From positions 9,854 to 73,853 of IMG/VR virus record IMGVR_UViG_3300033183_000058: a DNA stretch of 64,000 bases; one strand, given 5' to 3'. Below are positions 17,201 to 61,838 of the stretch, piece by piece. Position 1 is the stretch's first letter. Each line of letters begins with the position of its first letter. The DNA comes from a virus. The notes under the pieces were generated by a model. The model was given only the letters and a program-made list of their open reading frames with translations, was not told the DNA's origin and made no database searches. A program made the translations under genes and the position numbers.

Positions 17201-20200
17201 TAGGTGATGTTTTTTCAGTAAAGATTTTTAAGTATTCTTTGTCTGAATAACTAGCCATTCTATAGGTCAGTTGCACATCCATGTTGTCTAGTGTTTCTTC
17301 GATCGCTGTGTTAGTATCTATACCTTGTTTACGAGCATAATCTACTGACCAATTAATGTAAGAATGTTTAGGAGTGTCTGCACCGTATATAACTAGGTCG
17401 CTGGTTGTAATTCTTGAACGACCGTTATATAAAATTTGATCTAATCCTGAATCACGTTTGTATAAATCTCTATCTGCATTTAGTGCAAAAAACTCTGCTG
17501 GTTTAGTTAATGCTAGTAAACGCATTACAGCAAATGGATATGCTGATGACTTACGCCACGCAGATTCTACTGGGCCTTGATCACCAACTACCCAAGACTT
17601 CTTAAGACTTAGACTGTCATAGTTACCAGTCATTGTATCAAATGCTGTTTTTAACTCGCCTTCATCTGTAATAGGTAATACTGATGATAGTCCTGTTCGT
17701 TTATATTTTTCGTCTACAGTGTATGAGTCTGTGCCATCCCAGATTCGGCCTGCTTCTAAATCGTCCCAAAGAACTTCGTTGCCTGATGTATAAGGTGCTG
17801 GGCCATATTTGGTATTCCACCAACTTGGTTTTTCTGTAAAGCCAATCATTTCCCACGGACGAACATGTGGACTATCAGTGTCATAAAAGTCATTGAATAT
17901 ACCTCTCCAATGTCCTAGTAGTAGTTCACCGTCTACTGTATCCTGTGCCGATGAATAGTTCCATGTCTTCTGATCATCAGCATCATAATCTTGATCTTTA
18001 TAGTCAAGTCTATTCCATGCCACCCATGATAAGAAACTTGTTCCTAATATGTCTGTGATCTCTGCCTGTGTGTAGTCTGTTGTTCTAAATTTACCTGGAG
18101 CAACATCTTGGTAGCATAATGGTATTGTATTTGTTAAATCAACTTTAATGTTGTTGTAGATACGTTTTTCAAATTCTAATAATAAATCATCTCTAGCATC
18201 ACCAAATGCTACAGTTCTTGACCCATCATGTCCAACAATTACATTTTTTGTTTCTGTATATGTGTCATCGCTGACTATTTCTGGATCGTAACGACCATAC
18301 AAACCTAGTTTAGTAGGTGTGCTAGGAATATATGAACCTGCTGTCGATTCATATTCTCTGATTACTAAAACATCACCAACTGCTAGTGTTTTTGATATAT
18401 CAACTCGAGCCACATTAGCAGGAACTGTATAGTCTGTATTGTATAATAACTGTTCGTCATTTAGGTAAACCAATAGACCTTTATAGTTTGCTTTGGTAAA
18501 GTCATAGGTCTGTGTAAGATCAAATATACTGTCATCAATTGCTGTTACTGTGTATGTTGTTTCGGTGTAGACATCGCCACATGGTATTGTGTCTGACCAA
18601 TAAAATGGCATTGAATTTTCTTTACCAGTATTAACAAATTGTATTGCTTGATCAAGTTGATCTCTTACAGTGCCTTGGAAATCATTGTTTGAAAATGCTT
18701 CGACTAGTTTCCATTTATATTTTTCATATTCTGTAGCGGCAAAATCTAAAGCCTTAAAGAAATTAATATTAGAATCACGCATAAATGTTGCGGCAAATTG
18801 TATTGGTGATCCCTGTTGAACAATTTTATTACCATAAGGAACAACATCACCTAGATCTCTAATATTATTTTTACCTAAAACTGAGCCTGATAATTCTGTA
18901 ATGTGCTGTGCTAGATCAATATAGTGATTTCTAATAGTGCCCAGTGTAATATCATTAAACGTTCCATTAACTGAATTATTTGCTAAATTATCAGGAACTT
19001 CATAAAAGCCTGCTGTTGATGCTAGGTCACTTTGTAATTTAACTACAACATTATCTCCTGCAGTAGGTGTATAGTCTGTGCCAAATGTTACAGTGGTCTG
19101 TGTTGAGGATGTTGTATATGAATATCTACTTGGCTCTTGATAAACATTGTTAACATAAACAATTACTGGATTTTCTACTGATGTTTTTGCAGGAACATCA
19201 CAAATCAGATCAACTCCGGCCCAGGTAAATGTTAGAACTTGATACTGTATTGATTTGTTATTATGTTTTTTCCAACCTATTTCCTGATCATAGGCAGTTC
19301 TTGTTGTATAGTTATGAACAAAGCCAAAATTAATTGATTTAGTAGTTGATGTTGAATCTACAGTGTAGGTAAATGTGTCTTTTTCTAAATTATTATCAAA
19401 TACAATATCGCCAACGTTGTCGATGTTTAAGTATTTTAATTTTTGATTTAGTATAGGATCAACCGCGCCACTTCCATCTGCATAACTGAATAATTTAGTG
19501 CCTGTGAAATTTGTTGATGGATAATATGTATTATCGCCTAGACTGCGTCCATTTGAATCAAATATATCAAATAACGGTGATTGGTTTACTGATGTTTTTT
19601 GCTGTGCTTCTACCCAACTAGTGCCGTTGTATCTATATGCTTTACCCTGAAGTGTAGCACCACTTGAAAGATAAACAACTTGGTCTGTTGTTATTGATGC
19701 ATCGCTGGCCTCAGTTAAATTAATAATTTTTGCAGTTGACGAAACACCGTCTTGGTCAATTAATTCAACTTGATATATTTTATTTCTTACTTCAGGATCT
19801 AGATCATTGGCAAAAATAATTCTAGAACCTGTTACCAGACCGTAGCCATCTGTTGAATATCCTGTCTTACCATTGACATTTGATAGTGCGTCTGTTTGAT
19901 TTAAATCAATAATATCAATTTCTTCTAGTGCTTCTGTGCCATAGTTATATAATCTTAATCCTGGTTTGAATTCTAACACAGGTCTTTTTGCTCTCAGATT
20001 CTGATCTAAGATTGCTGTGGTATTATTATATTCTGCTGTTTTTGTAATTACATCAACATGGAACCAACGATTTGATCTTGTCCAGGCATTTTTATCTAGA
20101 CTTGCACGATTAATTGTGTAGTAGTCTGCATCCTTTGGAGCATTTAATGATTCGTCCCAAGGACTTGCGTCATATGCTGTTGAATCAAATGGCAGTGTTT

Positions 20201-31550: not shown

Positions 31551-32468
31551 GTGTCAGAAGATAAAGTAATTACCAGAACCGGACGTAGAGTAAACTATCT
31601 CAACAACAGAGATATCCTTAAAGAAATACACAAGTCAAAAAAGACCTACTGTAGTTACACTAATATTGAAACTGATTCAGACTTTGATATTATTGTTCCT
31701 GATATTAAAAAAATTAATAAAACTAGAATCAAAGAAGCACGTCAGTTAAAGATCACTAAGTGGAAAAAAGAAACAGGCGAAGAATTAAATCCTAAAGATA
31801 TAGCAGATACTGATCTAGTATTTCGTGTTATGACCTGGGACCATATTCCTCTAGTGCCTAAAAAGCCTACTAAAGCACAGTTAAAGAAACGTGCTAAGAT
31901 TGAGGAAATGTTTGATGACATTGAAGAAGCCAGAGAACAAGAAGATTACGGCATTGATGATCATATTCATGCCAAAGTAAACTTTCCTCCGTTTCAACAC
32001 TACAAAGTTGATGAAGATGGCGTCCCATATAAGGTAGGACAAAGCCATTGGCGAGGTGATTTTGAAACAGGTAAGTTCTCAAAAGATCACGGACAAATGA
32101 CTAACAAACTAGCTCATATGTTTATCAAATTGTGTGAGCGTTATGCTACTAGATCAAACTGGCGTGGTTATACCTATAACGAAGAAATGCGTGGACAGGC
32201 GCTACTTCAACTATCACAAATTGGTCTACAGTTTGATGAGTCAAAATCGGACAATCCATTTGCTTATTACACTGCGGCCATTACTAATTCATTTACTCGT
32301 GTGCTTAATATTGAAAAGAAAAACCAAAGCATCAGAGACGATATCTTAGAAATGAACGGATTGAATCCAAGTTGGACTAGACAAAACGCCGATGTTGATG
32401 CTAAACTAGAAGATAAGTTTTACGAAAAGCAACGAGAAAAACAAAAAGAGAAACAAAAATCAAAGTAA
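31551..32468 (+). CDS. gp55: Late-transcription sigma factor gp55-like
   Basis: NYLNNRDILKEI; NWRGYTYNEEM; FDESKSDNPFAYYT; adjacent to gp47/gp46 as in T4-like phages. Confidence 0.85.
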   Translation: MSEDKVITRTGRRVNYLNNRDILKEIHKSKKTYCSYTNIETDSDFDIIVPDIKKINKTRIKEARQLKITKWKKETGEELNPKDIADTDLVFRVMTWDHIPLVPKKPTKAQLKKRAKIEEMFDDIEEAREQEDYGIDDHIHAKVNFPPFQHYKVDEDGVPYKVGQSHWRGDFETGKFSKDHGQMTNKLAHMFIKLCERYATRSNWRGYTYNEEMRGQALLQLSQIGLQFDESKSDNPFAYYTAAITNSFTRVLNIEKKNQSIRDDILEMNGLNPSWTRQNADVDAKLEDKFYEKQREKQKEKQKSK

Positions 32469-32493
32469 AACCCTGTAACTACTAAGGAAGGTT

Positions 32494-33510
32494 ATGGCAA
32501 ATTTATTTAAGAAGGCGGCTGTCCTTACTGACATTCACTTTGGACTAAAGTCAAACTCAACTACACACAACGAAGACTGTTTAAATTTCGTAAAATGGTT
32601 TATTGAAAAAGCCAAAGCGGAAGGTTGTGAAACCTGTATTATGATGGGCGACTGGCACAACAACCGTGCCGCAATCAATATCGTCACACTCAACTATAGT
32701 TTAACAGCACTAGAACTACTAGGCGATGCTTTTGATCGTGTGTTCTTTATTCCAGGTAATCACGACTTATACTACAGAGACAGGCGTGACATACAGTCAG
32801 CAAGTTGGGCTAAACATATCAAAAACGTTCACATCATGAACGACTTCTACTCAGAGGGCGATGTTCAATTCATACCTTGGCTGGTTGGTGACGAAGCAAA
32901 GAAAGTTAAAAAGATGGAAGGCAAGTATGCTTTTGGACATCTAGAGTTACCTCACTTCTTTATGAATGCTATGGTGCAGATGCCAGACACAGGTGAGATA
33001 CAGCGTGAAGACTTCCGTGGATTAGAATCTGTTTATACAGGACATTTCCATAAACGTCAAAGCCATAATAACATTATCTATACTGGTAACTGCTTTCCTC
33101 ACAACTACGCAGACGCAGGCGATGATGACAGAGGTATGACCATTATTGAATGGGGTAAAGATCCAGAATATCATTCATGGCCACAACAACCTAGATATCG
33201 TGTCTATAACTTAGATGAGATGCTGAACAATCCAGAAGAACTCTGTAAGGAAAAGATGCACATCCGTGTGAACTTGAATATTGATATTAGTTATGAAGAA
33301 GCAAGTTTCATCCGTGAGGAGTTTGTAGGCAAATACAACCTACGTGAACTTACACTGATACCTGTTAAGAAAGATGTAGAGTTTGCAGATGTTCAACCAG
33401 GAGAGTTGAAGTTCGAATCGGTTGACACCATAGTAACAAATCAGTTAACATCAATAGAAAGCGATCATTACGATCCTAAACTACTATTAGAAATTTACAG
33501 AGATCTATAA
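32494..33510 (+). CDS. gp47: Recombination endonuclease subunit (Mre11/SbcD-like)
   Basis: Metallophosphoesterase motifs TDIHFG, GDWH, PGNHD, GHFH. Confidence 0.95.
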   Translation: MANLFKKAAVLTDIHFGLKSNSTTHNEDCLNFVKWFIEKAKAEGCETCIMMGDWHNNRAAINIVTLNYSLTALELLGDAFDRVFFIPGNHDLYYRDRRDIQSASWAKHIKNVHIMNDFYSEGDVQFIPWLVGDEAKKVKKMEGKYAFGHLELPHFFMNAMVQMPDTGEIQREDFRGLESVYTGHFHKRQSHNNIIYTGNCFPHNYADAGDDDRGMTIIEWGKDPEYHSWPQQPRYRVYNLDEMLNNPEELCKEKMHIRVNLNIDISYEEASFIREEFVGKYNLRELTLIPVKKDVEFADVQPGELKFESVDTIVTNQLTSIESDHYDPKLLLEIYRDL

Positions 33511-35280
33511 TTGTTTAAACTAAAAACACTAACAGTTAAAAACTTTATGAGTGTGGGTAATGCCACGCAGGCAGTTAACTTTGATCGTAGAGACCTAACA
33601 CTAGTATTAGGTGTTAATATCGATCTCGGAGGCGATGATAGTGGCGCAAGGAATGGAACAGGTAAGACCACTATCATTAACGCCCTTTCATATGCACTGT
33701 TTGGACAAGCATTGACCAACATCAAACGTGATAACTTGATTAACAAAACAAACTCAAAAGGTATGTTGGTTTCATTAGACTTTGAACATAATGGACAGCA
33801 GTATAAAATAGAACGTGGACGTAAGAAAAATGTCATGCGTTTTTATGTAGGTGATGAGGAACAAGAAATCACAGACATGGCACAGGGCGATAGTCGAGAA
33901 ACACAAAAATATATTGAATCAATGTTGGGCATGAGTCATGAGATGTTCAAACATTTGGTTGCACTAAACACCTACACTGATCCTTTTTTAAATCTACGTG
34001 CTAACGATCAAAAAGATATCATTGAACAGTTGCTTGGTATTACCATGCTTTCAGAAAAAGCAGATGCTCTTAAAGAAAAACTTAAAGAAACTAGAGATGC
34101 AATCAAAGAAGAAGAATATCGCATCAAAGCACAGCAGGAAGCCAACGCTAAGATCAAAGATCAAATTGAAGGTCTCAAACGTAGACAAACATTATGGATT
34201 CAGAAAAAAGAAGATGATATCGATTATCTAAATGCAGGACTAGCAAAACTAGAAGAGATTGATATTGAAAAAGAGTTAGAGCTACACAAAGAACTTAAGA
34301 CGTGGAAGGAACAATCTACACAGATAGAACAAGTTCAAACAGCAATCAAACAAGCAGAGCGTGACTACAAGCGTGAAGAAGATGCTATCGGTAAACTAAA
34401 AGCAGACTTAGAGTTAGTTAGAGAACATAAGTGTCATGCCTGTGGACAAGAGGTGCATGATGAGAAACATGGTGAGATTCTAGCACAAAAAGAAGCAAGT
34501 CTTAAGGATGCTGAACAAGAACACGAGCGTCACTACACAACCTATCAAGAACTAGTTAAAGCAGAACAAGAATTGGGTGCTTTAGGTATTAGACCAGAAA
34601 CATTCTACTCAGATGAAAAAGATGCTTATGAACACAAAAGTTCTATGGCTAACTTAGAATCACAGATTAAACAACGTGAAGCAGAAGAAGACCCATATGA
34701 TGAACAGATCAAAGAGATGGAAGAAAGTGCAGAGTCTGAGATAGATTATTCCACAACGAATGATCTAGAAAAACTGCGTGAGCATCAAGAGTTCTTACAA
34801 AAATTGTTAACAAACAAAGATAGTTTTATTAGAAAACGTATCATCGATCAAAACTTGAGTTATCTTAATTCACGGTTAAGTTATTATCTTGACAAGATTG
34901 GACTGCCACACACAGTCACCTTCCTTAGCGATCTGTCAGTAGAGATACAGGAACTTGGCCGTGAGTTAGATTTTGATAACTTGTCTAGAGGTGAACGTAA
35001 TAGACTGATACTTTCACTGTCGTGGTCATTCCGTGATGTCTATGAAAGCCTCTACGACCCTATTAACTTACTATTCATTGATGAATTGATTGATAGTGGT
35101 ATGGATTCTAGTGGTGTTGAATCAGCACTGGCAATCCTTAAGAAGATGTCAAGAGAGCATAACAAGTCAATATGGCTAGTGTCACACAAAGATGAACTAG
35201 CAGGTCGTGTTAATAATATTATGACTGTGACTAAAGAGAATGGTTTTACTACATACGGTAACGACGTTGAAACAGTTTAG
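33511..35280 (+). CDS. gp46: Recombination ATPase subunit (Rad50/SbcC-like)
   Basis: Walker A RNGTGKTT; coiled coil with CHAC zinc hook; signature LSRGE; Walker B LLFIDE. Confidence 0.95.
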   Translation: MFKLKTLTVKNFMSVGNATQAVNFDRRDLTLVLGVNIDLGGDDSGARNGTGKTTIINALSYALFGQALTNIKRDNLINKTNSKGMLVSLDFEHNGQQYKIERGRKKNVMRFYVGDEEQEITDMAQGDSRETQKYIESMLGMSHEMFKHLVALNTYTDPFLNLRANDQKDIIEQLLGITMLSEKADALKEKLKETRDAIKEEEYRIKAQQEANAKIKDQIEGLKRRQTLWIQKKEDDIDYLNAGLAKLEEIDIEKELELHKELKTWKEQSTQIEQVQTAIKQAERDYKREEDAIGKLKADLELVREHKCHACGQEVHDEKHGEILAQKEASLKDAEQEHERHYTTYQELVKAEQELGALGIRPETFYSDEKDAYEHKSSMANLESQIKQREAEEDPYDEQIKEMEESAESEIDYSTTNDLEKLREHQEFLQKLLTNKDSFIRKRIIDQNLSYLNSRLSYYLDKIGLPHTVTFLSDLSVEIQELGRELDFDNLSRGERNRLILSLSWSFRDVYESLYDPINLLFIDELIDSGMDSSGVESALAILKKMSREHNKSIWLVSHKDELAGRVNNIMTVTKENGFTTYGNDVETV

Positions 35281-36181
35281 TAATACACCAATAAAGTTGT
35301 TACATCTAGAACCTACAACAGACTGTAACGTTGCTTGTCCTCAGTGCAATAGAACTATCGGACTTCCTTACTACAATGATAAAAAAGATAGATCTGAACT
35401 TTCGTTAGACGATATTAAAAAATTATTTACTGTAGAATTTATAAAAAACCTTGACAAAATGTTTATGTGTGGAAACTTTGGCGAGCCTGCGGCCGCTAAG
35501 GATTGCCTGGATATATTTCGTTACTTTAAGGAAGTTAACCCTAACATAACACTGGGCATGAATACCAATGGTAGTCTACGAACCAAAGGCTGGTGGAAGG
35601 AACTTGCTGAAATCTTTTCAGGTCCATTGGATTATGTTGTTTGGTCAATTGACGGATTAGAAGATACCAATCATATCTATCGTGTTAACGCAGTATGGGA
35701 TAAGATTATTGAAAATAGTCAAGCATTTATATCAGCAGGCGGCTCAGCACATTGGGATATGCTGATATTTGACTATAATGAACATCAAGTTGATCAAGCA
35801 GAAAGTCTAGCACGTGAACTAGGATTTAGTTGGTTCAGGGCAAAAGTAAGTAAACGTTTTGACTATGCTCCTGTTGGGTTTTTAGAACCACCTAAGAGTT
35901 GGAATAAACCCAATGTTGTTGAAGCAGATAAAATTGAATGTATAGCCCTTAGAGAGCAAAGTTTATATGTTGCCGCAAATGGTGAAATTTTACCTTGTTG
36001 CTGGTTTGGTGCAGAGGCATTCAGTTTAGATCAAAAAGCCAAAGAGCTAACAAAAGATTTAACTAAATTAGAACATAGTTGGACCAGCGACCCCCATAGG
36101 ATTTGCTTGACTACTTGTGGTGTAGATGAACAAGGAACAAGTTTTGATAAACAATGGCAAAGAGAAACACAACTTCGTTAG
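35240..36181 (+). CDS. Radical SAM protein with C-terminal twitch-like domain
   Basis: CNVACPQC; CGNFGEP; C-terminal C...LPCC...C..TC. The start may be the TTG at 35267. Confidence 0.88.
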   Translation: MVLLHTVTTLKQFSNTPIKLLHLEPTTDCNVACPQCNRTIGLPYYNDKKDRSELSLDDIKKLFTVEFIKNLDKMFMCGNFGEPAAAKDCLDIFRYFKEVNPNITLGMNTNGSLRTKGWWKELAEIFSGPLDYVVWSIDGLEDTNHIYRVNAVWDKIIENSQAFISAGGSAHWDMLIFDYNEHQVDQAESLARELGFSWFRAKVSKRFDYAPVGFLEPPKSWNKPNVVEADKIECIALREQSLYVAANGEILPCCWFGAEAFSLDQKAKELTKDLTKLEHSWTSDPHRICLTTCGVDEQGTSFDKQWQRETQLR

Positions 36182-37695
36182 ACATAGCACTATTAAGTGT
36201 TCCAAGAATTGCACCTGTGAGGCCACAGATGGCTCCTGCTGTCTTAAAGGGTATATGCAATAAACTTGATCTATCATCTAAAATATTAGATCTTAATCAA
36301 GACTTTTATCTAAAGTGGGGTAAACAAAACGAATCAGCAGTTCAGACTTTAGATGATTACTTTATTGAATTCTCTAAATCATTAGATTCTAATATTAAAG
36401 ACATTTACTACCAATGGATAGACTCTTGGGTTGAGCAAATTAACAAACTCAATCCTAAGCATATAGGTATCAGTGTGTTCAGTTGGCAAAGCCAAAGATT
36501 TACTAGAGATCTATTAACACGCCTCAGACCTAAAACCCAGGCAATAATACACATTGGCGGTCAAGGTCTAACACATAATCAAAATTTAAGTGCTCACTGG
36601 TCAAGCCGAGTAACATTTGGATGGGAGATGTTAGATTCTAATCTCATCGATTACTTTATGAAAGGCGAAAGCGAAGAAACATTTGAACGTTTCTTACAGG
36701 GAGAAAGAGATTTACCTGGACTCAACAATGATTCTGTTGTTAAGTTTTCAGCATTAGACAATGTGCCTTTGCCTGACTATGATGATTTAGACATACAAGG
36801 ATACCAAAATGGTTATAGTGCCGGTGTGTTGCCTATAGAAAGCAGTCGCGGTTGTGTGCGTAGTTGTAGTTTTTGCGAAATGAGTTCAATGCACGGTAAC
36901 TTCAGACGTAAGTCAGGACACAGTGTAGCACGTGAAATGATTGAATATTATAAAAAATATGGAGTTAGAGATTTCTATTTCCATGACGATCTAATGAACG
37001 GTAATCTAGATGATTTTAGAGACACCCTTAATGATCTAATAGAATTTTATGAACAAGAAAATTTAGGAGATGCTTACTTTAGTTTAAGTGGGTATTGGAT
37101 CATACGTAGCCAGCGACAGTTTGGAGTCAAAGATTGGCAGACACTAAAACGTGCAGGTGGTAACTTGTTTGTAGTTGGTATCGAAACAGGATCAGATAGA
37201 TTAAGAAAAATAGTTCGTAAAGGATTTACCAACAAAGATCTAGAGTTCAGTGTTAAACAAATGAGTAACAATGGTCTTAAGTTTTACTTTATGTTAATAT
37301 CAGGCATACCTGGAGAAACCAAACAAGACTTTCAAGATACATTAGATATGCTGACTAATTGGCAACGTTATGTTGCAGACGGAACTATTATTGGTATTAA
37401 TCTAGGAACAACAGCAACTATCGAAGAAGGCACAGACTTTTATAACAAGCCTGAGAAATACAATGTTGTTGGCTTCCAAGGTAAAAAGCCACAGGGCATC
37501 AACTGGATGAGTTTAGACACACCTGAATTAGATTATAAAGAACGTGTGCGTAGAAGAATTAAAATACAAGAACACGTTATGAGTTTAGGTTATCCATTAT
37601 GGAAAGGTGATGATCATCTTAAGATAATCAAAGATCAATATATCCTTAATAAGGATCAATGGGAACAGTATCGTTCAGGATTAATAATGCCGTGA
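36154..37695 (+). CDS. B12-binding-domain radical SAM protein (class B methyltransferase-like)
   Basis: N-terminal Rossmann-like region (IGISVFS, IHIGG, KGESE); SRGCVRSCSFC; GIETGS; GIPGET. Confidence 0.85.
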   Translation: MAKRNTTSLDIALLSVPRIAPVRPQMAPAVLKGICNKLDLSSKILDLNQDFYLKWGKQNESAVQTLDDYFIEFSKSLDSNIKDIYYQWIDSWVEQINKLNPKHIGISVFSWQSQRFTRDLLTRLRPKTQAIIHIGGQGLTHNQNLSAHWSSRVTFGWEMLDSNLIDYFMKGESEETFERFLQGERDLPGLNNDSVVKFSALDNVPLPDYDDLDIQGYQNGYSAGVLPIESSRGCVRSCSFCEMSSMHGNFRRKSGHSVAREMIEYYKKYGVRDFYFHDDLMNGNLDDFRDTLNDLIEFYEQENLGDAYFSLSGYWIIRSQRQFGVKDWQTLKRAGGNLFVVGIETGSDRLRKIVRKGFTNKDLEFSVKQMSNNGLKFYFMLISGIPGETKQDFQDTLDMLTNWQRYVADGTIIGINLGTTATIEEGTDFYNKPEKYNVVGFQGKKPQGINWMSLDTPELDYKERVRRRIKIQEHVMSLGYPLWKGDDHLKIIKDQYILNKDQWEQYRSGLIMP

Positions 37696-38222
37696 TATTA
37701 GAACTACACTTTGAATCAGACAATCATTTTGGACATCCAACACTAGAGATTGCTGTTGACGATCAACAGTTGTATCAGGGTGGGATTCGTAATCGATTCC
37801 AGTTTAATATAGAACTAAGCGATGGCCAACATCAACTTAAGATCACACACTATGGTAAAAATAAAAACGAAACCACAGTTACTAATGATAAACATTTTAA
37901 GTTAACAAAAGTATTAATGGACTCGGTTGATTTAGATCTTAAAGAACATTGTAGATTATCGCACCAAGGGATATTTAGACCTGACTATCATCCTGACTTT
38001 GTTAAAGATCAAACATTGTTGGGTGTAATACCTCCTGAGACCATACAGCCTAATCATTACTTTGGGCATAACGGAGTTTGGATATTAGATTTTAAAACTC
38101 CTGCACTGCTTTGGATTATCGAATCACAGAATCCATCAGGTATGCACTTAGAGGATACTATTTTTAAAAGTGGGCAAGACACTATTAATGATATAAAAGA
38201 ATTTTTTGGAATAGATGACTAA
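37659..38222 (+). CDS. Hypothetical protein (beta-rich)
   Basis: ORF coupled to both neighbours; likely GTG start at 37692 (GTGA overlap with the upstream stop). Confidence 0.7.
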   Translation: MGTVSFRINNAVILELHFESDNHFGHPTLEIAVDDQQLYQGGIRNRFQFNIELSDGQHQLKITHYGKNKNETTVTNDKHFKLTKVLMDSVDLDLKEHCRLSHQGIFRPDYHPDFVKDQTLLGVIPPETIQPNHYFGHNGVWILDFKTPALLWIIESQNPSGMHLEDTIFKSGQDTINDIKEFFGIDD

Positions 38223-39327
38223 GTTTGATTACACTGCAATAGACGAATATCAATTGGAAATTACAACTTACTGTAATGCTAGTTGCCCACAGTGTCCTCG
38301 TAATGACCTAGGTGGCAAATTAAATCCTTACATGGATCTAGTTCACTTGGAACGTGATGTAATTGATCGTGCATTTACACCTGAACTATGTAGTAGACTA
38401 AGACAGGTATTCTTCTGTGGCAGTTATGGCGATCCTATAGTGCATCCAGAGTTTTTAGATATACTAAAAGACTTCCGTCGTAAGAATCCAACATTATGGT
38501 TATATGTGCATACCAATGGCGGTGCTCATAATCCTGCATACTGGCACGAGATGGCTGAGATAATGAATGGCTATGGTCAAGTAGACTTTGGCTTAGATGG
38601 ATTACAAGATACTCTACACCTATATCGCAAACACGTAGACTATGATAAAGTTATAGAAAACGCCCAAGCATTTATTTCTGCAGGTGGACGTGCTATGTGG
38701 CAGATGATTGTGTTTAAGCACAACGAACATCAAGTTAAAGAAGCAGAACAGATTGCTAAAGACATGGGCTTCTTTAAGTTTCTTGCTCGTAAGACTGGTC
38801 GTTTCTTCCATCATGGCGAAGAACGTGAACTAGATCATTGGCCTGTTAAAGATATGCAAGGCGAAGTAGAATACACACTGGAACCGCCGGAAAGTGAACA
38901 ATGGCGTAACCAAAGTGTTATTAAATTACCAGAACTTAAAAAGCAATATAACGACCTACAGCAATACTTTAAGACCACAGACATACATTGTGATAGCCTA
39001 CACGGTAAAAAAGTTGCTATGAACGCACAAGGCGTGTTGTTGCCCTGTAACTTCTTTAATCATAACCTCTATGATGCTAGGTTTAGAGATGGCACACTGC
39101 CAGGTAGTAATCGTGGACACACAGTAGACGGAAAGAATCAAGTAAGAACATTTTTAGAACAGTATGGACTTGACAATTTAGACATACACAATTATAGTAT
39201 AGAGGACATATTTAAAAATCCTTTCTGGTCGGACCTAGTTGACACTTGGTCAAATAACAATAGAATTTTTGAATGTGCTATGACTTGTGGTAAACAATTT
39301 ACAAAAGTATGGGATCAAACTCGATGA
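38215..39327 (+). CDS. Radical SAM protein with C-terminal twitch-like domain
   Basis: CNASCPQC; CGSYGDP; LPCN; CAMTCG; paralog of 35240..36181. Confidence 0.88.
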   Translation: MTKFDYTAIDEYQLEITTYCNASCPQCPRNDLGGKLNPYMDLVHLERDVIDRAFTPELCSRLRQVFFCGSYGDPIVHPEFLDILKDFRRKNPTLWLYVHTNGGAHNPAYWHEMAEIMNGYGQVDFGLDGLQDTLHLYRKHVDYDKVIENAQAFISAGGRAMWQMIVFKHNEHQVKEAEQIAKDMGFFKFLARKTGRFFHHGEERELDHWPVKDMQGEVEYTLEPPESEQWRNQSVIKLPELKKQYNDLQQYFKTTDIHCDSLHGKKVAMNAQGVLLPCNFFNHNLYDARFRDGTLPGSNRGHTVDGKNQVRTFLEQYGLDNLDIHNYSIEDIFKNPFWSDLVDTWSNNNRIFECAMTCGKQFTKVWDQTR

Positions 39328-39908
39328 AAATATTAGTAACCGGAGACAACAGAGGCCTAGGCCTAGACATAAAGAACGAATTTTCTGCAGATGGCATAAG
39401 TAGACAGTCAGGCTTTGACATTACTCGAGACGTTAAGCAAATTGCAGAGAAAAGTTTGGAGTATGATGTCTTTATCAACAACGCATTTGATGGTCCCCCA
39501 CAAGAAGACTGGGCTAACTTTGGCCAAGTTAACTTACTGCTAGAAGTATACAAGCAGTGGCGTGAACACAACAAAACAGGTTGGATATTTAACATAGGCA
39601 GTATTGGCGAGAAGAGCATAGTTGCTCCAGACCCTGATTGGGAAACCTACAGGATAGCTAAGTCAGCATTGAGACACGCTAGTCAACAATGCACTCGTGC
39701 CTTTAAAGACAACAAAGTCAAATTTAGGACTACGTTGATTAGTCCTGACAGGCTTGACACTGAATTATCACGTTCTCGTGATAACTGGACAGGTAACGGT
39801 ATACAAACTAAGGATATCATTGATTTTATTAAGTATTCTTTGGAAGTAAATCCTAACACTGTCATCGAGGAGGTCACTTTTTACTGTGGCCTTGATTACT
39901 CGGCATAA
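39324..39908 (+). CDS. Short-chain dehydrogenase/reductase
   Basis: VTGDNRGLG Rossmann motif; INNA; NIGS; catalytic YRIAK (YxxxK); ATGA overlap start at 39324. Confidence 0.88.
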   Translation: MKILVTGDNRGLGLDIKNEFSADGISRQSGFDITRDVKQIAEKSLEYDVFINNAFDGPPQEDWANFGQVNLLLEVYKQWREHNKTGWIFNIGSIGEKSIVAPDPDWETYRIAKSALRHASQQCTRAFKDNKVKFRTTLISPDRLDTELSRSRDNWTGNGIQTKDIIDFIKYSLEVNPNTVIEEVTFYCGLDYSA

Positions 39909-39944
39909 ATGTTAGTGCTACAACTCTTTTAGAAAGGAAACATA

Positions 39945-40385
39945 TTGTCATACGAAAACCCTTGGATGTTACAAGACTCAATCTTTGACTCTGAAGATAT
40001 CGGTGACAACTACGGTTTCGTCTATAGAATCACAAACACTACAAACGGACATGACTACATCGGCAAGAAGTTCTTTTGGCGTAAGGTCACACGTCCGCCA
40101 CTCAAAGGCAAGAAAAATAAAAGAAGATCATTGGCAGAATCTGATTGGAAGGAATACTGGGGCTCCAGTGACCGACTACAGGCAGATATAGAAAAATTAG
40201 GCAAAGACAAATTCTCAAGGCAAATAATCCATTTGTGCAAATCCAAAGGCTCAACAAACTATTTGGAGTGCTACTATCAAATGAAAGAGAACGTGCTGTT
40301 ACGTGATGACAATTACAACGGCATTATTAACATTCGACTTGGTGTAGGATCTGTTAAAGACGTATTATTAGAAGATTTAAAATAA
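39945..40385 (+). CDS. Stand-alone GIY-YIG family endonuclease
   Basis: GFVYRITNTTNGHDYIGKK (GIY..YIG); YWGSS; conserved Glu (NYLE) and Asn (YNG); TTG start with SD AAGGA. Confidence 0.85.
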   Translation: MSYENPWMLQDSIFDSEDIGDNYGFVYRITNTTNGHDYIGKKFFWRKVTRPPLKGKKNKRRSLAESDWKEYWGSSDRLQADIEKLGKDKFSRQIIHLCKSKGSTNYLECYYQMKENVLLRDDNYNGIINIRLGVGSVKDVLLEDLK

Positions 40386-40805
40386 ACAGCCACTGATGCA
40401 GATGTATTCTGTGTCCTACGAGGTGATCACTGAGAAGTGTGGAACTCCTGAGAATAGACTTAGGAACGGGACGGCAACAGGCGAATAAGTTTAAAAACTA
40501 AATGATGTAGGCTCTGAGAAAAAGCAACCTACGTGTTGATATAGTTTGGCTAATCACGGACTATACAGCATCCGCCAGATGAATCTAGAGTAGGGAGCAC
40601 CGGCTGACCACTTCCGTCCTTAGGGAATCTCTTTTGATTAGTATGACGCTAACACGGATGATGCGTGGTCATAATTTGCCTGCGGATAGGTGAATTATGA
40701 CTTAAATCAGGATGATACGCGAAGGGTATGTAAAAGAAATCAATTAACTCTAGTTAAGAATAAAAGGTATGAGCGATAGCGAAATACAGATGTCGTAAGA
40801 CATCT
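40386..40805 (+). ncRNA. Candidate large structured ncRNA (alternatively a structured origin element)
   Basis: ~420 nt with no ORF in the track; about ten stems with G-U pairs favouring the plus strand; GNRA tetraloops; 8-bp loop pseudoknot 40549-40556/40635-40642. Confidence 0.6.
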
Positions 40806-41491
40806 TAAAATGTGTATCCAAAATGATCAATCCAAACACGATGTGCTTCAGTAACAGTTGCTAGAGTCTTTGGGTTTGTGTAATAGTCCTGATAAGGATT
40901 AGGTCTTATCCTGTAACCTGATTTATACTTTGGCATTGTGTCTGGTTTATACACTTCACCTATATTCTCACAGATACGTGCTACCTCATTATCAAAATCC
41001 TCATAACGAATAACATCATCTACAATAACTTCATCACCAATAGTAAAAACATCTAGGTCATCTGCTAACCATCTAGGTTTCATATCAATAAACCACTCAA
41101 ACGATTCCCTTACTTCGTCAAATGGCATGTGTGGTTTACGAGCAATCTTCTTACGTATAGAGTGCATGGTCCACCAAAACTTAGATACCATACGATCCCA
41201 AGGATTGCGAATAACACAGATCTTGTAGTAAGACTTCCATACATCCTCACCTAACAGACTACGCAGTCTTTTAGCACTCATATGATTCCAATATTGATCT
41301 TCTTTGATCTTTCTACCATTGTGTCTGGCTCCTGCTATACCATACTCTGATATAGTTTCTACTCTGTTGTGATCGCCTAGGTCTACTGTGTCGGGTGGTA
41401 AACAAAACTGTTCAAGGTATGCTTCAACAGAAGTGCCACCTGTCTTTTTGGTTTTGAGATATATGAATTTGTGAGTGTGGCTTACAAGCAT
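40805..41491 (-). CDS. Sulfotransferase family 2 protein
   Basis: PAPS-binding motifs FIYLKTKKTGGTS (5'-PSB) and IRNPWDRMVS (3'-PB); IRYE; C-terminal FGY. Start reassigned to the ATG at 41491. Confidence 0.85.
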   Translation of the reverse strand: MLVSHTHKFIYLKTKKTGGTSVEAYLEQFCLPPDTVDLGDHNRVETISEYGIAGARHNGRKIKEDQYWNHMSAKRLRSLLGEDVWKSYYKICVIRNPWDRMVSKFWWTMHSIRKKIARKPHMPFDEVRESFEWFIDMKPRWLADDLDVFTIGDEVIVDDVIRYEDFDNEVARICENIGEVYKPDTMPKYKSGYRIRPNPYQDYYTNPKTLATVTEAHRVWIDHFGYTF

Positions 41492-41507
41492 AACATTACT
41501 TATAGTC

Positions 41508-41544
41508 AAAAGAAAAGGCCCAGGTATCTCAACGTGAGCCTTTT
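41508..41544 (-). terminator. Probable terminator after the small membrane protein gene
   Basis: Minus strand AAAAGGCTCA...TGGGCCTTTT stem followed by CTTTT. Confidence 0.55.
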
Positions 41545-41978: not shown

Positions 41979-42209
41979 CTAAAAGAAGGGCATTCTGCTC
42001 TTTTTGGTGGTTTCTAGATTTTCCTTGATTATGTCGTTTATGATAGATCTTTCTTCCATTGACAGGTGCATGGCTTCTGTATAGCTCAAACCACCACGCA
42101 TATACCATGCCATTTTGAGACTATCGTTTCTAATACTCTTAGTCTCTTTTTCCATTCCTTCAACTAGGCCCTCGATCTCTTCAGAGTTCAAGGTCAAGAG
42201 CCTTATACG
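41979..42209 (-). CDS. gp51-like hub/tail assembly chaperone C-terminal part (-1 frame extension of the upstream gene, or independent start at ATG 42155)
   Basis: MAWYMRGGLSYTEAMHLSMEER resembles small tail-chaperone/gp51-like domains; the frame stays open through the slippery site. Confidence 0.65.
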   Translation of the reverse strand, partial: RIRLLTLNSEEIEGLVEGMEKETKSIRNDSLKMAWYMRGGLSYTEAMHLSMEERSIINDIIKENLETTKKSRMPFF

Positions 42210-43042
42210 AAAAAATTTGACATATCCAATGTAAATGGTTGACTGTATTCTTTGCCACATTCCTCGTTAGAACATTTAATGGTCAATGGTTTTATTTCTG
42301 TTCCAGCTCTGAGATCACTTAAATGATCACGTATTCTATTAAACACTTTGCTGTCGCAGTTGGTCATAAACTCTTTGATATGCTCTGGATTGTCTACAGT
42401 TTCTCCGTTTACACGAATCAACGATATGCTGTCTCCGATAGCACCCATGGTAAGTTTGGTTACGTTTGCTAAGGCTTGTCCTAGTGCAGACATCTTATCT
42501 GCTTCTGGTATGTTTTCATCTGCCTGCGCCATCTGCATAACCTTTTGTTGTTCAAACTGTGCTTTGGCAGTTTCGTTTAGATCAAAGTATGTCATAGGTT
42601 TAAAGAATACTTCAAGGTCACTTATCTTTGCAGACTTTGCATAGTCTGGTGCACGATATTGATCAATGACATTACGTAGATCAAGTGCGTAGTCCTGTGT
42701 TTCGTTGCAGTGAGGACAAGTCACAGTCATTTCCATTTCGTGACCATAACTGGCAATTCGAACTGCTGTTAACAATAGGTCAACGTCTGTTTGTGGGATC
42801 GCCCATGGATCTTTGATGTTTGGTATACAGCTCTTAAATATTTCAGCAACTGCTGAACCGTTAAACAATGCGTCAGGTGTTCTGTTTACGATCTCATCCA
42901 TAGCAGTCATTGGAAAGATAGGTATCTCTCCGTTAACAGGCATATCTAGTGTGCCAGGTGGATAAAATTTACCATCACTAGGTAATTTAACGTAGATTGC
43001 AGGTTGTCTAAAATACTTCTGTAAGGGGTTATTTTCGCCCAT
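42203..43042 (-). CDS. gp26: Baseplate hub assembly chaperone gp26-like
   Basis: YVKLPSDGKFY; PMTAMDE; AVRIASYG; two Cys pairs (CPHC, CSNEEC); ends NFFV. Start at ATG 43042. Confidence 0.75.
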   Translation of the reverse strand: MGENNPLQKYFRQPAIYVKLPSDGKFYPPGTLDMPVNGEIPIFPMTAMDEIVNRTPDALFNGSAVAEIFKSCIPNIKDPWAIPQTDVDLLLTAVRIASYGHEMEMTVTCPHCNETQDYALDLRNVIDQYRAPDYAKSAKISDLEVFFKPMTYFDLNETAKAQFEQQKVMQMAQADENIPEADKMSALGQALANVTKLTMGAIGDSISLIRVNGETVDNPEHIKEFMTNCDSKVFNRIRDHLSDLRAGTEIKPLTIKCSNEECGKEYSQPFTLDMSNFFV

Positions 43043-43054
43043 ATTCAAATACCA

Positions 43055-43083
43055 TAAATAGTTATATAACACAAATATTTATA
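43055..43083. promoter_or_regulatory. Face-to-face pair of late promoters serving the tape measure and chaperone genes
   Basis: TAAATA on plus (43055-43060) and TATAAATA on minus (43076-43083), with palindrome GTTATATAAC between them. Confidence 0.6.
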
Positions 43084-49701: not shown

Positions 49702-50877
49702 ATGTCACAAGAACTACTTGAAAGCCGTTGGGGTGAAACTAAAGAAGCATTATTAGAAGGCCTCCAAGGTAATAAGAAAAATTCAATGGGTGTTGTTTTA
49801 GAAAACACTCGTAAGCACTTGATGGAGACATCAGCGGCTGGCACAACAACAGCTGGTAACGTTGCTACATTAAACCGTGTGATCCTTCCAGTGATCAGAC
49901 GTGTGATGCCAACAGTTATCGCTAACGAAATCGTTGGTGTTCAACCAATGACAGGCCCAGTTGGTCAAATCCATACATTAAGAGTGCGTTATGCAGAAAC
50001 AAACAATGCTACTGGCACTGCTAACGATGTAACAGCAGGTGACGAAGCATTATCACCATTCAAGATTGCTACTGCATATTCTGGTGATGGCACTGCAGGT
50101 AATGCAGATGTAACAGCGGCTAAAGAAGGAACAGGCGGTCGTAAGATCTCAGTTCAAATCTTGAAACAAGCTGTTGAAGCAAAAACACGTAAATTACAAG
50201 CACGTTGGACATTTGAAGCGGCTCAAGATGCACAAGCTATGCACGGCATCGACGTAGAAGCAGAAATCATGGCGGCTTTAGCACAAGAAATTACTGCTGA
50301 AATCGATCAAGAAATCTTAGCATCTTTACGTTCATTAGCGGCTACAGAGTTCACATACAACCAGAACACAGTTTCAGGCACAGCGACATTCGTTGGTGAC
50401 GAGCATGCGGCACTTGCTGTTTTAATTAACAGAACTGCTAACTTGATCGCTCAAAGAACACGTCGTGGCGCAGGTAACTGGGCTGTTGTATCTCCAGCGG
50501 CATTAACAGTATTACAATCTGCTACAACTTCAGCGTTCGCAAGATCAACTGAAGGCACATTTGAAGCACCAACAAACACTAAATTCGTTGGCACATTAAA
50601 CGGTGCTATGAAAGTTTATGTTGACTCATATGCTTCAGATTCTACAGCAGTATTAGTTGGTTACAAAGGCTCAAGCGAATCAGATGCGGCGGCGTTCTAT
50701 TGCCCATACGTTCCACTAATGAGCTCAGGTGTTGTTTTAGATCCATCAACATTTGAACCAGTAGTATCATTCTTAACACGTTATGGCTACGTAGAATTAA
50801 CAAACACAGCATCATCATTTGGTAATGCTGGTGACTACGTGGGAGAAATTGCTGTTTCTAACTTATCATTCTCATAA
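49702..50877 (+). CDS. gp23: Major capsid protein
   Basis: GVQPMTGPVGQI; AKTRKLQARWTFEAAQD; EITAEIDQEI; FYCPYVPL; TRYG. Confidence 0.97.
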   Translation: MSQELLESRWGETKEALLEGLQGNKKNSMGVVLENTRKHLMETSAAGTTTAGNVATLNRVILPVIRRVMPTVIANEIVGVQPMTGPVGQIHTLRVRYAETNNATGTANDVTAGDEALSPFKIATAYSGDGTAGNADVTAAKEGTGGRKISVQILKQAVEAKTRKLQARWTFEAAQDAQAMHGIDVEAEIMAALAQEITAEIDQEILASLRSLAATEFTYNQNTVSGTATFVGDEHAALAVLINRTANLIAQRTRRGAGNWAVVSPAALTVLQSATTSAFARSTEGTFEAPTNTKFVGTLNGAMKVYVDSYASDSTAVLVGYKGSSESDAAAFYCPYVPLMSSGVVLDPSTFEPVVSFLTRYGYVELTNTASSFGNAGDYVGEIAVSNLSFS

Positions 50878-50947: not shown

Positions 50948-51048
50948 TATAAATACTATTACTCGCACACGGGGTGCGTTTTTATGCTGTTACCATATCA
51001 GCGTAGCGGATAGAACCCGCATTGGACTTCTATAAGGAGAAATATAAA
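50948..51048 (+). promoter_or_regulatory. Late promoter plus structured 5' leader
   Basis: TATAAATA at 50948-50955; four consecutive hairpins, the last containing the SD. Confidence 0.6.
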
Positions 51049-51405
51049 ATGGGTAGACCAATAGACAAATACTTTTTAGGTGCAACCGGCGGTTCGCCAG
51101 CAACTATTCCAGTTCGTGCAGACATTAGTGGAACAGACTTTGAAGGTTACATCGTTAATCAAAAAGGTTCTAAAACTTTCACAGTATCAAACGACGCAGG
51201 CACACTTCAAGGTGAATGTGTTTTAGTTGACAAAGTTAACGGTCACGATGCAGGCGAAATGTCTATCGTTGGCTTAGCAGACGGTTCTGCGACAACGATT
51301 CAAAAGATCACAGCTCACAAAGCAGTTGACTATAATGGCAACGCTTACTCATGGGCAGTGGCAGACGATTCATCTGAATCACTATTAATCTTAACAGCAC
51401 TATAA
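51049..51405 (+). CDS. Probable capsid decoration/structural protein
   Basis: Starts MGRPIDK at ATG 51049 after SD TAAGGAG; immediately after the major capsid gene. Confidence 0.65.
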   Translation: MGRPIDKYFLGATGGSPATIPVRADISGTDFEGYIVNQKGSKTFTVSNDAGTLQGECVLVDKVNGHDAGEMSIVGLADGSATTIQKITAHKAVDYNGNAYSWAVADDSSESLLILTAL

Positions 51406-61828: not shown

Positions 61829-61838
61829 GGAATACTCG

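What the first reader, a model, noticed from the sequence alone, without database searches (positions are those of the whole stretch)
39945..40805. Minimal GIY-YIG nuclease followed directly by a ~420-nt pseudoknotted structured element: candidate nuclease-ncRNA system
Seen: the largest non-coding gap in the window begins at the GIY-YIG stop codon and is densely base-paired. Domain 1 is closed by CTGATGC/GCAACAG (40393-99/40474-80) and GTCCT/GGGAC (40413-17/40468-72), and contains CACT-GAGA-AGTG (GNRA loop) and TCCTGAG/CTTAGGA. Next come GTAGG/CCTAC (40507-32) and a long stem (40534-40570) whose 8-nt loop GCTAATCA (40549-56) is complementary to TGATTAGT (40635-42), forming a pseudoknot around a nested domain (AGAG/CTCT, GGGAG/CTTCC). 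A 15-bp hairpin (40667-40702) is flanked by two GGATGAT copies, and a terminal AGATGTC-GTAA-GACATCT hairpin ends the element. Repeated G-U pairs and GNRA loops indicate folding of the plus strand. The 146-aa protein is a bare catalytic domain with a basic insertion (RKVTRPPLKGKKNKRR) and no separate DNA-binding domain. Established: large ncRNAs partner nucleases in HEARO/OMEGA (IscB) systems. Inference: a phage ncRNA possibly acting with the nuclease as scaffold, guide or regulator. A ssDNA-structured replication origin or a nuclease-independent RNA are the alternatives.
Basis: partly seen in the sequence, partly recalled or inferred. Interest (0 to 1): 0.85.

Follow-up and report, generated by a model that had tools for sequence, protein, structure and literature searches.

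The report
Large twin-box phage RNA beside nuclease
The gene-free 420 bases behind a small nuclease gene of this uncultured T4-like aquatic phage encode a real, knotted non-coding RNA shared by over a hundred phages; its job is unknown, it carries one 7-letter word twice, and the nuclease looks like a habitual neighbour, not an obligate partner.

Summary
Window 40386-40805 (+) is a real, multi-domain, pseudoknotted RNA. Only the proposed closing helix fails, and the gap is the fourth-largest ORF-free stretch, not the largest.

The core hairpin pattern finds at least 120 IMG/VR loci and no cultured phage. RNA-library contigs from salt marshes cover the gene and the element.

No Rfam family matches the window. 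However, Burkholderiales genomes with a Polynucleobacter-1 (RF01718) hit carry the same downstream architecture. RF01718 is therefore the 5' third of a sister branch of this larger, undescribed RNA.

The word GGATGAT occurs twice (40656-62, 40710-16). In 38 diverse relatives the word differs but the two copies stay identical. I found no complement within the RNA. The boxes change at the background rate, so they do not behave like guides.

The nuclease reading is weak:
- About 90% of RNA loci have the SegE-type GIY-YIG gene just upstream.
- Most homologous nuclease genes lack the RNA.
- Eight phage loci and seven bacterial loci have the RNA without the nuclease.

This scan has reported the same family before on other DNA. 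Function remains unknown.

The parts
39945..40385 (+). 146-aa SegE-type GIY-YIG nuclease gene, immediately upstream of the RNA
   Evidence: Pfam PF19835 E 1.4e-40. PHROG 447 E 2.8e-42. The GIY, YIG, Glu108 and Asn125 columns are invariant in 12 homologs.
40386..40805 (+). Whole structured RNA element, about 420 nt
   Evidence: No ORF. Conserved downstream of the nuclease gene in L002-L006. Covariation. RNA-library contigs cover 39916-40839.
40398..40472 (+). 5' domain: hairpin GCAGA/TCTGT (40398-402/40408-12), GTCCT/GGGAC (40413-17/40468-72), CACT-GAGA-AGTG (40428-39), TCCTGAG/CTTAGGA (40446-52/40459-65)
   Evidence: All are kept with compensatory changes in the close clade. This domain differs between clades and is not detected by RF01718.
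40507..40532 (+). Core hairpin GTAGG-CTCTGAGAAAAAGCAA-CCTAC with a near-invariant loop
   Evidence: The pattern GGCNNTGAGARAAAGCAACC hits at least 120 IMG/VR loci. The stem is 94% paired, with 4 of 5 pairs doubly changed in 96 sequences.
40540..40565 (+). Long stem TATAGTTTG/CGGACTATA with the 8-nt loop GCTAATCA (40549-56)
   Evidence: 9 of 9 pairs change on both sides; 87% paired in 96 sequences; many U-G pairs.
40635..40642 (+). 3' strand of the pseudoknot (TGATTAGT), pairing with loop 40549-56
   Evidence: The loop and this strand covary across clades, e.g. GCTGTTAT/ATAACAG and GTTTGTGA/TCACAAA. 7 of 7 pairs are doubly changed although the pseudoknot was not in the model.
40587..40632 (+). 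Nested domain inside the pseudoknot: AGAG/CTCT, GGGAG/CTTCC, GG/CC, small hairpin TCC/GGA
40642..40663 (+). Pseudo-repeat unit 1: TATGAC, 8-nt linker, box 1 GGATGAT (40656-62), then G
40668..40701 (+). 13-bp hairpin GTCATAATTTGCC/GGTGAATTATGAC between the two boxes
   Evidence: 95% paired in A2. The upper stem is recovered by RNAalifold on 38 diverse sequences.
40696..40717 (+). Pseudo-repeat unit 2: TATGAC, 8-nt linker, box 2 GGATGAT (40710-16), then A
   Evidence: Box columns are 100% identical between the copies in 37-38 diverse sequences, against 0.35-0.54 in shuffles.
40718..40765 (+). AT-rich linker, variable in sequence and length
   Evidence: Alignment A2 columns 358-415; absent in L005.
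40767..40805 (+). 3' domain: GTAT-GAGCGATAGCGAA-ATAC hairpin and terminal hairpin AGATGTC-GTAA-GACATCT
   Evidence: (pairs 416-439 with double changes). The same two hairpins occur in the Polynucleobacter copies. No U-tract terminator.
40805..41509 (-). Convergent sulfotransferase-like gene; its stop codon abuts the terminal hairpin (context only)
   Evidence: Pfam PF03567 E 4.6e-08.
41979..43072 (-). Small 'WYMRGGLSY' gene and baseplate hub gene: the conserved downstream synteny partner of the RNA
   Evidence: phrog_150. The hub gene lies on the opposite strand within 4 kb downstream in 58 of 79 loci.

Best explanation
The gap encodes a stand-alone structured non-coding RNA of about 420 nt. 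It is transcribed on the plus strand as the tail of the operon that ends with the GIY-YIG gene. It belongs to a large, mostly undescribed RNA family of uncultured T4-like aquatic phages and a few Burkholderiales genomes. In one sister branch, the 5' third of that family was catalogued as the orphan motif Polynucleobacter-1.

Shown: its architecture is a variable 5' domain; an invariant-loop core hairpin; a long stem whose loop forms a pseudoknot around a nested domain; two roughly 22-nt pseudo-repeat units flanking a 13-bp hairpin; and two 3' hairpins. Each unit ends in the same 7-nt box.

Inferred: the RNA acts in trans, and the two boxes, which are mostly unpaired, are twin docking sites for two copies, or two halves, of one partner that co-evolves slowly with the phage. 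That partner could be a nucleic acid encoded elsewhere or a dimeric protein. The GIY-YIG gene is a frequent syntenic neighbour and probably supplies transcription, but it is not required for the RNA.
For: Structure:
- 83.3% of cells pair in 96 distinct sequences, against 60.8% in shuffles and 44-51% with slid partners. 35 of 37 pairs change on both sides, including the pseudoknot that was not in the model.

Strand:
- U-G or G-U is the commonest pair at four positions (48-69 sequences each). These would be A-C mismatches on the other strand.
- Plus-strand fold z is -2.66, against -1.52 for the minus strand.

Expression:
- Contigs of four salt-marsh RNA libraries cover 39916-40839. One runs across the stop codon (40303-40718).

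Spread:
- At least 120 IMG/VR loci carry the core pattern.
- 98 of 98 pattern loci searched and 17 of 80 nuclease-selected loci are hit by model R1.

Twin boxes:
- They are identical in 37-38 diverse sequences at variable columns.
- Mean unpaired probability is 0.62 and 0.58, against 0.44 overall.
- Box divergence tracks core divergence.

Independence from the nuclease.

Kinship with RF01718-linked RNAs.
Against: - No function is shown and no partner of the boxes was found.
- The RNA-library evidence comes from assembled contigs of relatives. It gives no ends, strand or level.
- About 90% linkage to the nuclease gene, kept through inversion of the pair relative to the hub gene in some loci, is more than loose synteny would predict.
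- The bacterial copies are not detected by my covariance model. Their homology rests on shared architecture read by eye.
Confidence: 0.55

Rival explanations
1. Nuclease-RNA ribonucleoprotein: the bare GIY-YIG domain uses the RNA as scaffold or guide, with the twin boxes reading two half-sites of a target.
For: The gene ends 106-235 nt upstream of the core hairpin on the same strand in roughly 85 of 95 evaluable loci that were found through the RNA alone. An RNA-library contig bridges the gene and the RNA. The protein has no separate DNA-binding domain. Protein and RNA distances are positively correlated (Mantel r 0.34, 0 of 999 permutations).
Against: The RNA occurs without the nuclease in 8 phage loci and in Burkholderiales genomes, 4 of 5 of which have no PF19835 anywhere. 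The nuclease occurs without the RNA in most homologous loci and in cultured phages. The basic insertion is not specific to RNA-linked proteins. The boxes diverge at the background rate, unlike guides. Neither the box word nor its complement is enriched or depleted in flanking phage DNA.
Confidence: 0.08
2. Homing-endonuclease neighbour: the GIY-YIG gene is a Seg-like free-standing homing endonuclease that sits beside, and perhaps cuts within, the conserved RNA gene of nuclease-less relatives. The linkage would then reflect homing, not a shared function. This explains the adjacency only, not what the RNA does.
For: The protein belongs to the SegE family and PHROG 'homing endonuclease' families also match it. 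RNA-only loci exist in the same synteny. Extra genes lie between the pair in five loci and the nuclease gene is inverted in two. The protein-RNA distance correlation is only modest. From general knowledge, not tested here: T4 SegB lies in and targets the tRNA gene region.
Against: The gene family is near-universal in cyanomyophages (824 phage records) rather than sporadic. No cleavage site is known.
Confidence: 0.2
3. Cis-acting 3' element: a structured 3' UTR that stabilises or terminates the upstream operon, or insulates it from the convergent late genes.
For: It always lies at the 3' end of a plus-strand gene. In 58 of 79 loci it faces a convergent baseplate hub gene. The terminal hairpin abuts the convergent stop codon. 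An RNA contig bridges the stop codon.
Against: About 420 nt with a pseudoknot, invariant loops and twin boxes is far more than a terminator needs. There is no U-tract terminator. The bacterial copies sit in other contexts, with the upstream gene divergent.
Confidence: 0.1
4. DNA-level element: a single-stranded DNA origin, or twin protein-binding repeats (iteron-like).
For: Identical direct repeats that co-vary are typical of sites bound by one protein. G-T wobble is tolerated in single-stranded DNA.
Against: There is a long-range pseudoknot, GNRA-type loops and many G-U positions. RNA libraries cover the element. Only two 7-bp repeats are present.
Confidence: 0.03

Closest known systems
Polynucleobacter-1 RNA motif (Rfam RF01718; Weinberg et al. 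2010, PMC2864571)
   Same: RNAs with an RF01718 hit in Burkholderiales genomes continue 3' with the same order of parts as the window. These are an AAAGAU-flanked hairpin; a long stem whose loop pairs downstream; an 'ACCGCC' nested domain; CUC-box-G, hairpin, UCU-box-A; a GAGCGA..AGCGAAA hairpin; and a terminal hairpin (flanks in the authors' own Stockholm file). The paper places the motif downstream of a gene resembling P-SSM2 locus 218.
   Different: RF01718 models 141 nt of the 5' domain only. It does not match the window or 39 related loci, even at E up to 10 where tested. My core model does not detect the bacterial copies. The core, pseudoknot and twin-box module are not described in the paper.
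HEARO / OMEGA RNAs of IscB and TnpB
   Same: A large structured RNA directly 3' of, or overlapping, a small nuclease gene, with a pseudoknot.
   Different: No RuvC/HNH protein and no Rfam HEARO hit. There is no terminal guide, the only variable words diverge at the background rate, and the RNA and nuclease are separable.
T4 Seg endonucleases (SegE family, PF19835)
   Same: The protein is a member by profile, with the GIY, YIG, Glu and Asn positions conserved.
   Different: At 146 aa it consists of little more than the catalytic domain: Pfam covers residues 7-123. The matching PHROG family profile is itself 148 positions long.
Large orphan bacterial and phage RNAs (GOLLD, ROOL, raiA, OLE)
   Same: Large, ornate, widespread, function unknown, often phage-borne.
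   Different: No sequence or structure match in Rfam. Co-varying identical twin boxes are not, to my knowledge, a described feature of those classes.

Membership tests
Polynucleobacter-1 RNA (RF01718) | Match to the Rfam covariance model at or above 37 bits | tested here: not met
   No hit in the window at the gathering score, at E up to 10 over 39800-41000, or in the whole virus record at E up to 10. No hit in 39 related loci.
Polynucleobacter-1 RNA (RF01718) | Same full-length RNA as the sequences that do match the model (shared architecture 3' of the motif) | tested here: met
   Seven Burkholderiales loci with RF01718 hits of 75-104 bits show the same part order, including CTC-AGCGAAA-G and TCT-AGCGAAA-A. 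This was judged by eye; model R1 does not score them.
Polynucleobacter-1 RNA (RF01718) | Lies downstream of a GOS11034 / P-SSM2 218-like gene (paper's supplement) | not tested
   The window's RNA follows a SegE-type GIY-YIG gene. I did not check whether that gene is the paper's GOS11034 family (one search gives the paper's wording only).
OMEGA / HEARO nuclease-guide systems | IscB or TnpB (RuvC) protein with an RNA that carries a variable guide at one end | tested here: not met
   The protein is GIY-YIG. No HEARO hit. The boxes are internal and diverge at the background rate.
Group I intron with GIY-YIG homing endonuclease | Interrupts a host gene; match to the intron model | tested here: not met
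   No Intron_gpI hit at E up to 10. The upstream ORF ends at 39908 and the downstream gene is on the other strand.
SegE-type GIY-YIG nucleases (PF19835), for the protein | Profile match above 25 bits and conserved GIY, YIG, Glu and Asn positions | tested here: met
   138.8 bits, E 1.4e-40. The columns are invariant in 12 homologs.
tRNA / tmRNA | ARAGORN detection | tested here: not met
   No gene found in the window.

The most novel reading that the evidence does not exclude
The two co-varying 7-nt boxes are twin recognition elements that let an RNA-protein particle, possibly with the domain-only GIY-YIG nuclease where it is present, read two identical half-sites of a nucleic-acid target. This would be a new kind of RNA-specified nuclease or decoy in abundant aquatic phages.
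Probability: 0.05. Interest if true: 0.9.

Novelty: new variant of a known kind. Interest (0 to 1): 0.6.

Why it matters
Large, intricately folded RNAs of unknown function are rare. When solved, they have repeatedly revealed new biochemistry. This one is common in uncultured T4-like phages of seas, estuaries and lakes, and also occurs in Burkholderiales genomes. Only a third of it, in one branch, was ever catalogued.

The concerted evolution of two identical short words, with no complement in the RNA, is a concrete and testable puzzle. For the scan, the useful result is negative: the tempting 'new RNA-guided nuclease' reading is not supported by the distribution of the two genes or by the rate at which the boxes change.

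Tried and rejected
- Rfam at gathering score and at E up to 10 gave nothing for the element. The weak snoRNA-like rows are chance.
- blastn of three clade representatives against 50,697 phage records found no match.
- I searched each RNA for a full complement of the box, G-U allowed. Only scattered hits with no consistent position turned up.
- I counted each locus's own box word and its complement in about 0.8 Mb of flanking phage DNA against other loci's words and letter permutations. There was no clear excess or deficit: 97 observed against 88.6 expected, and 57 against 65.3. In the window the complement occurs once, inside a coding gene, at chance level.
- A search of five Burkholderiales genomes for two copies of AGCGAAA 5-35 nt apart gave chance-level counts, and that spacing excluded the RNA's own.
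- Model R1 on the bacterial RF01718 loci gave no hit with default filters, and a mis-registered 9.4-bit hit with filters off.
- R1 with filters off on eight nuclease loci with 343-543-nt ORF-free gaps found nothing.
- PDB by sequence returned no relative of the protein.
- The promoter and terminator scan found nothing above chance and no U-tract terminator.
- RNA-library contigs give no cover over 40840-41455. Because the contigs come from relatives, I draw no conclusion from that hole.
- A CsrA-site reading of ACACGGAUGA fits this clade only. Other clades lack GGA in the box.
- A T4 gene-60-like bypass reading (matching words about 50 nt apart around a hairpin) is rejected because no ORF enters the region.

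Full report
**Setting.** The window is part of a 73.8-kb IMG/VR virus record, about 21% complete. It carries T4-like portal, major head and baseplate genes.

ORF 39945-40385 (+) is a 146-aa SegE-type GIY-YIG protein (Pfam PF19835, E 1.4e-40). The next 419 nt hold no ORF longer than 47 codons. They end at the stop codon of a convergent sulfotransferase-like gene. By a 75-codon criterion this is the fourth-largest ORF-free stretch of the window, not the largest.

**Is the structure real?** Yes.
- The plus strand folds better than shuffles (z -2.66); the minus strand gives z -1.52.
- The element is conserved directly behind the nuclease gene in close relatives at 73-84% identity.
Shuffles give 83.1% and slid partners 37-49%. 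27 pairs change on both sides.
- Only the proposed closing helix CTGATGC/GCAACAG fails (46-59% paired). RNAalifold instead finds a local hairpin GCAGA/TCTGT.

**Spread of the family.** One of these, L183, is a spurious GC-rich match.

I built covariance model R1 from 21 sequences. It recovers all 98 loci searched.

On that alignment, 83.3% of cells pair, against 60.8% in shuffles and 44-51% with slid partners. 35 of 37 pairs change on both sides. The nested helices were fitted by the model, so those counts lean towards it. The pseudoknot was not in the model, and all 7 of its pairs still change on both sides. Read per sequence, loop and partner covary, for example GCUAACUA/UAGUUAG, GCUGUUAU/AUAACAG, GUUUGUGA/UCACAAA and GGUAGUAU/AUACUAU.

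U-G or G-U is the commonest pair at four positions. The plus strand is therefore the folded one.

**Expression.** Contigs from four salt-marsh RNA libraries, possibly one campaign, cover 39916-40839. One 444-nt contig runs from inside the nuclease gene across its stop codon to 40718. These are assembled contigs of close relatives. They show presence in RNA libraries and continuity with the gene, but not ends, strand or level.

**What is it related to?** No Rfam family matches the window, at gathering score or at E up to 10. None matches 39 related loci. No cultured phage holds the RNA by blastn.

Earlier notes of this scan pointed to Polynucleobacter-1 (RF01718). I tested that lead.
- RF01718 does not match the window's record, even at E up to 10.
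- The authors' own alignment file includes flanks. Seven Burkholderiales loci with RF01718 hits of 75-104 bits continue 3' of the motif with the same order of parts as the window, down to CTC-AGCGAAA-G, hairpin, TCT-AGCGAAA-A and the two 3' hairpins.
- My model R1 does not score those copies. The kinship therefore rests on architecture read by eye.

I conclude that RF01718 describes the 5' third of a sister branch of a larger RNA that has not been described as such. The one paper that names the motif is the 2010 survey.

**The twin boxes.** GGATGAT occurs at 40656-62 and 40710-16, on either side of a 13-bp hairpin.
- In a MAFFT alignment of 38 diverse relatives the word differs between clades: ACATGAT, TCGTGAT, GAATAAT, AAATGAA, TGGTAAT, AACAAAA and others.
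- The two copies are identical in every sequence at the variable columns, where shuffles give 0.35-0.54 identity.
- Box 1 is usually followed by G and box 2 by A, and this also holds in the bacterial copies.
- One bacterial locus, L241, shows a one-letter difference between its two copies.
- The boxes are more exposed than average in thermodynamic ensembles: 0.62 and 0.58 unpaired, against 0.44 overall.
- No complement exists at a consistent place in the RNA.
- Neither the word nor its complement is enriched or depleted in flanking phage DNA.

New here: the boxes diverge at about the same rate as the RNA core. Box distance is 0.02-0.08 per site where core distance is 0.03-0.07, and the two rise together. 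The boxes are kept in step, but they are not hypervariable, unlike guides or spacers.

The boxes are also the ends of two roughly 22-nt pseudo-repeat units, TATGAC-N8-box. Both TATGAC copies (40642-47 and 40696-701) can pair with the single GTCATA at 40668-73. In L005 all three changed together. This hints at two mutually exclusive folds, but it rests on one event.

**Partner or neighbour?**

For partnership:
- In roughly 85 of 95 evaluable loci found through the RNA alone, the GIY-YIG gene ends 106-235 nt upstream of the core hairpin on the same strand.
- The pair stays together where its orientation relative to the baseplate hub gene is reversed.
- Protein and RNA distances correlate modestly (Mantel r 0.34).

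Against:
- Eight phage loci have the RNA in the same synteny without the gene. Five have other genes in between, and in two the gene is inverted.
- The seven bacterial loci have no adjacent GIY-YIG gene, and 4 of 5 of those genomes have no PF19835 match at all.
- Of 80 loci chosen by the protein, only 17 have the RNA.
- 47 of the 57 RNA-negative loci that hold at least 500 nt of downstream DNA have the next ORF within 200 nt.
- P-HM2, S-SM2 and Melnitz have the gene but not the core motif.

The more constant neighbour is the convergent baseplate hub gene, found within 4 kb downstream in 58 of 79 loci.

**Reading.** The gap encodes a stand-alone, probably trans-acting, structured RNA made from the end of the operon that usually ends with the nuclease gene. 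Its twin boxes are likely docking sites for two copies of one slowly co-evolving partner that I could not identify.

The RNA-guided nuclease reading is not excluded, but I put it under 10%. A Seg-like homing endonuclease parked beside a conserved RNA gene is a reasonable account of the linkage. Function remains unknown.

This family has been reported several times by this scan on other DNA. My results agree on the structure and the twin boxes, and on 'neighbour rather than partner'. They disagree with the description of the boxes as fast-changing.

Noticed in passing
window 50963-51051 (+): Rfam freshwater-2 RNA (RF02980), 68.1 bits, just downstream of the major head protein gene (49702-50877). 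It is a second catalogued orphan RNA motif in the same phage.
   Followed up: no
window 61829-64000: ORF-poor end of the window. ORF-free stretches of 444, 738 and 435 nt are all larger than the one studied here, with no Rfam or tRNA hit.
   Followed up: no
window 40642-40647, 40668-40673, 40696-40701: TATGAC occurs twice and both copies can pair with the single GTCATA between them. In L005 all three changed together (TGCGAC / GTCGTA / TACGAC). This suggests two mutually exclusive folds of the twin-box module.
   Followed up: partly
window 8283-21686 (-): A single 4467-codon ORF, followed by an 1132-codon ORF, in the structural region.
   Followed up: no
window 31551-39908 (+): A run of plus-strand genes upstream of the nuclease gene: ORFs with cysteine-rich CxxxCxxC-type motifs (radical-SAM-like, from the translations), then a weak short-chain-dehydrogenase match just below Pfam's cut-off. 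A sulfotransferase-like gene lies on the other side of the RNA. This looks like an auxiliary modification cluster.
   Followed up: no
L235 2150-3440; L257; L222: In Polynucleobacter and other Burkholderiales genomes the RF01718-plus-twin-box RNA lies beside a conserved divergent gene of about 146 aa (MSTLNSLKMVNSKKP...) and near a conserved 188-aa gene (MSQARVLNPQELRRVLDHV...). No GIY-YIG gene is present. It may be a small mobile island.
   Followed up: partly
window 40385-40485 (RNA-library contigs of runs X15, X16): A relative in the salt-marsh RNA libraries has the same nuclease 3' end and RNA core, but a different 103-nt stretch in place of the 99-nt 5' domain. This shows modular replacement of that domain (table 5).
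   Followed up: no
L087, L027, L083, L171 (3' of box 2): In the most populous clade, the variable region between box 2 and the terminal hairpin holds short tandem words (ACGAAG, AATGAA, GAAAC).
   Followed up: no
L012, L019, L020, L035, L064, L072, L074, L075 (downstream of the GIY-YIG gene): Eight homologous nuclease loci have ORF-free gaps of 343-543 nt behind the gene that model R1 does not recognise, even with filters off. They could hold other or very divergent RNAs.
   Followed up: partly
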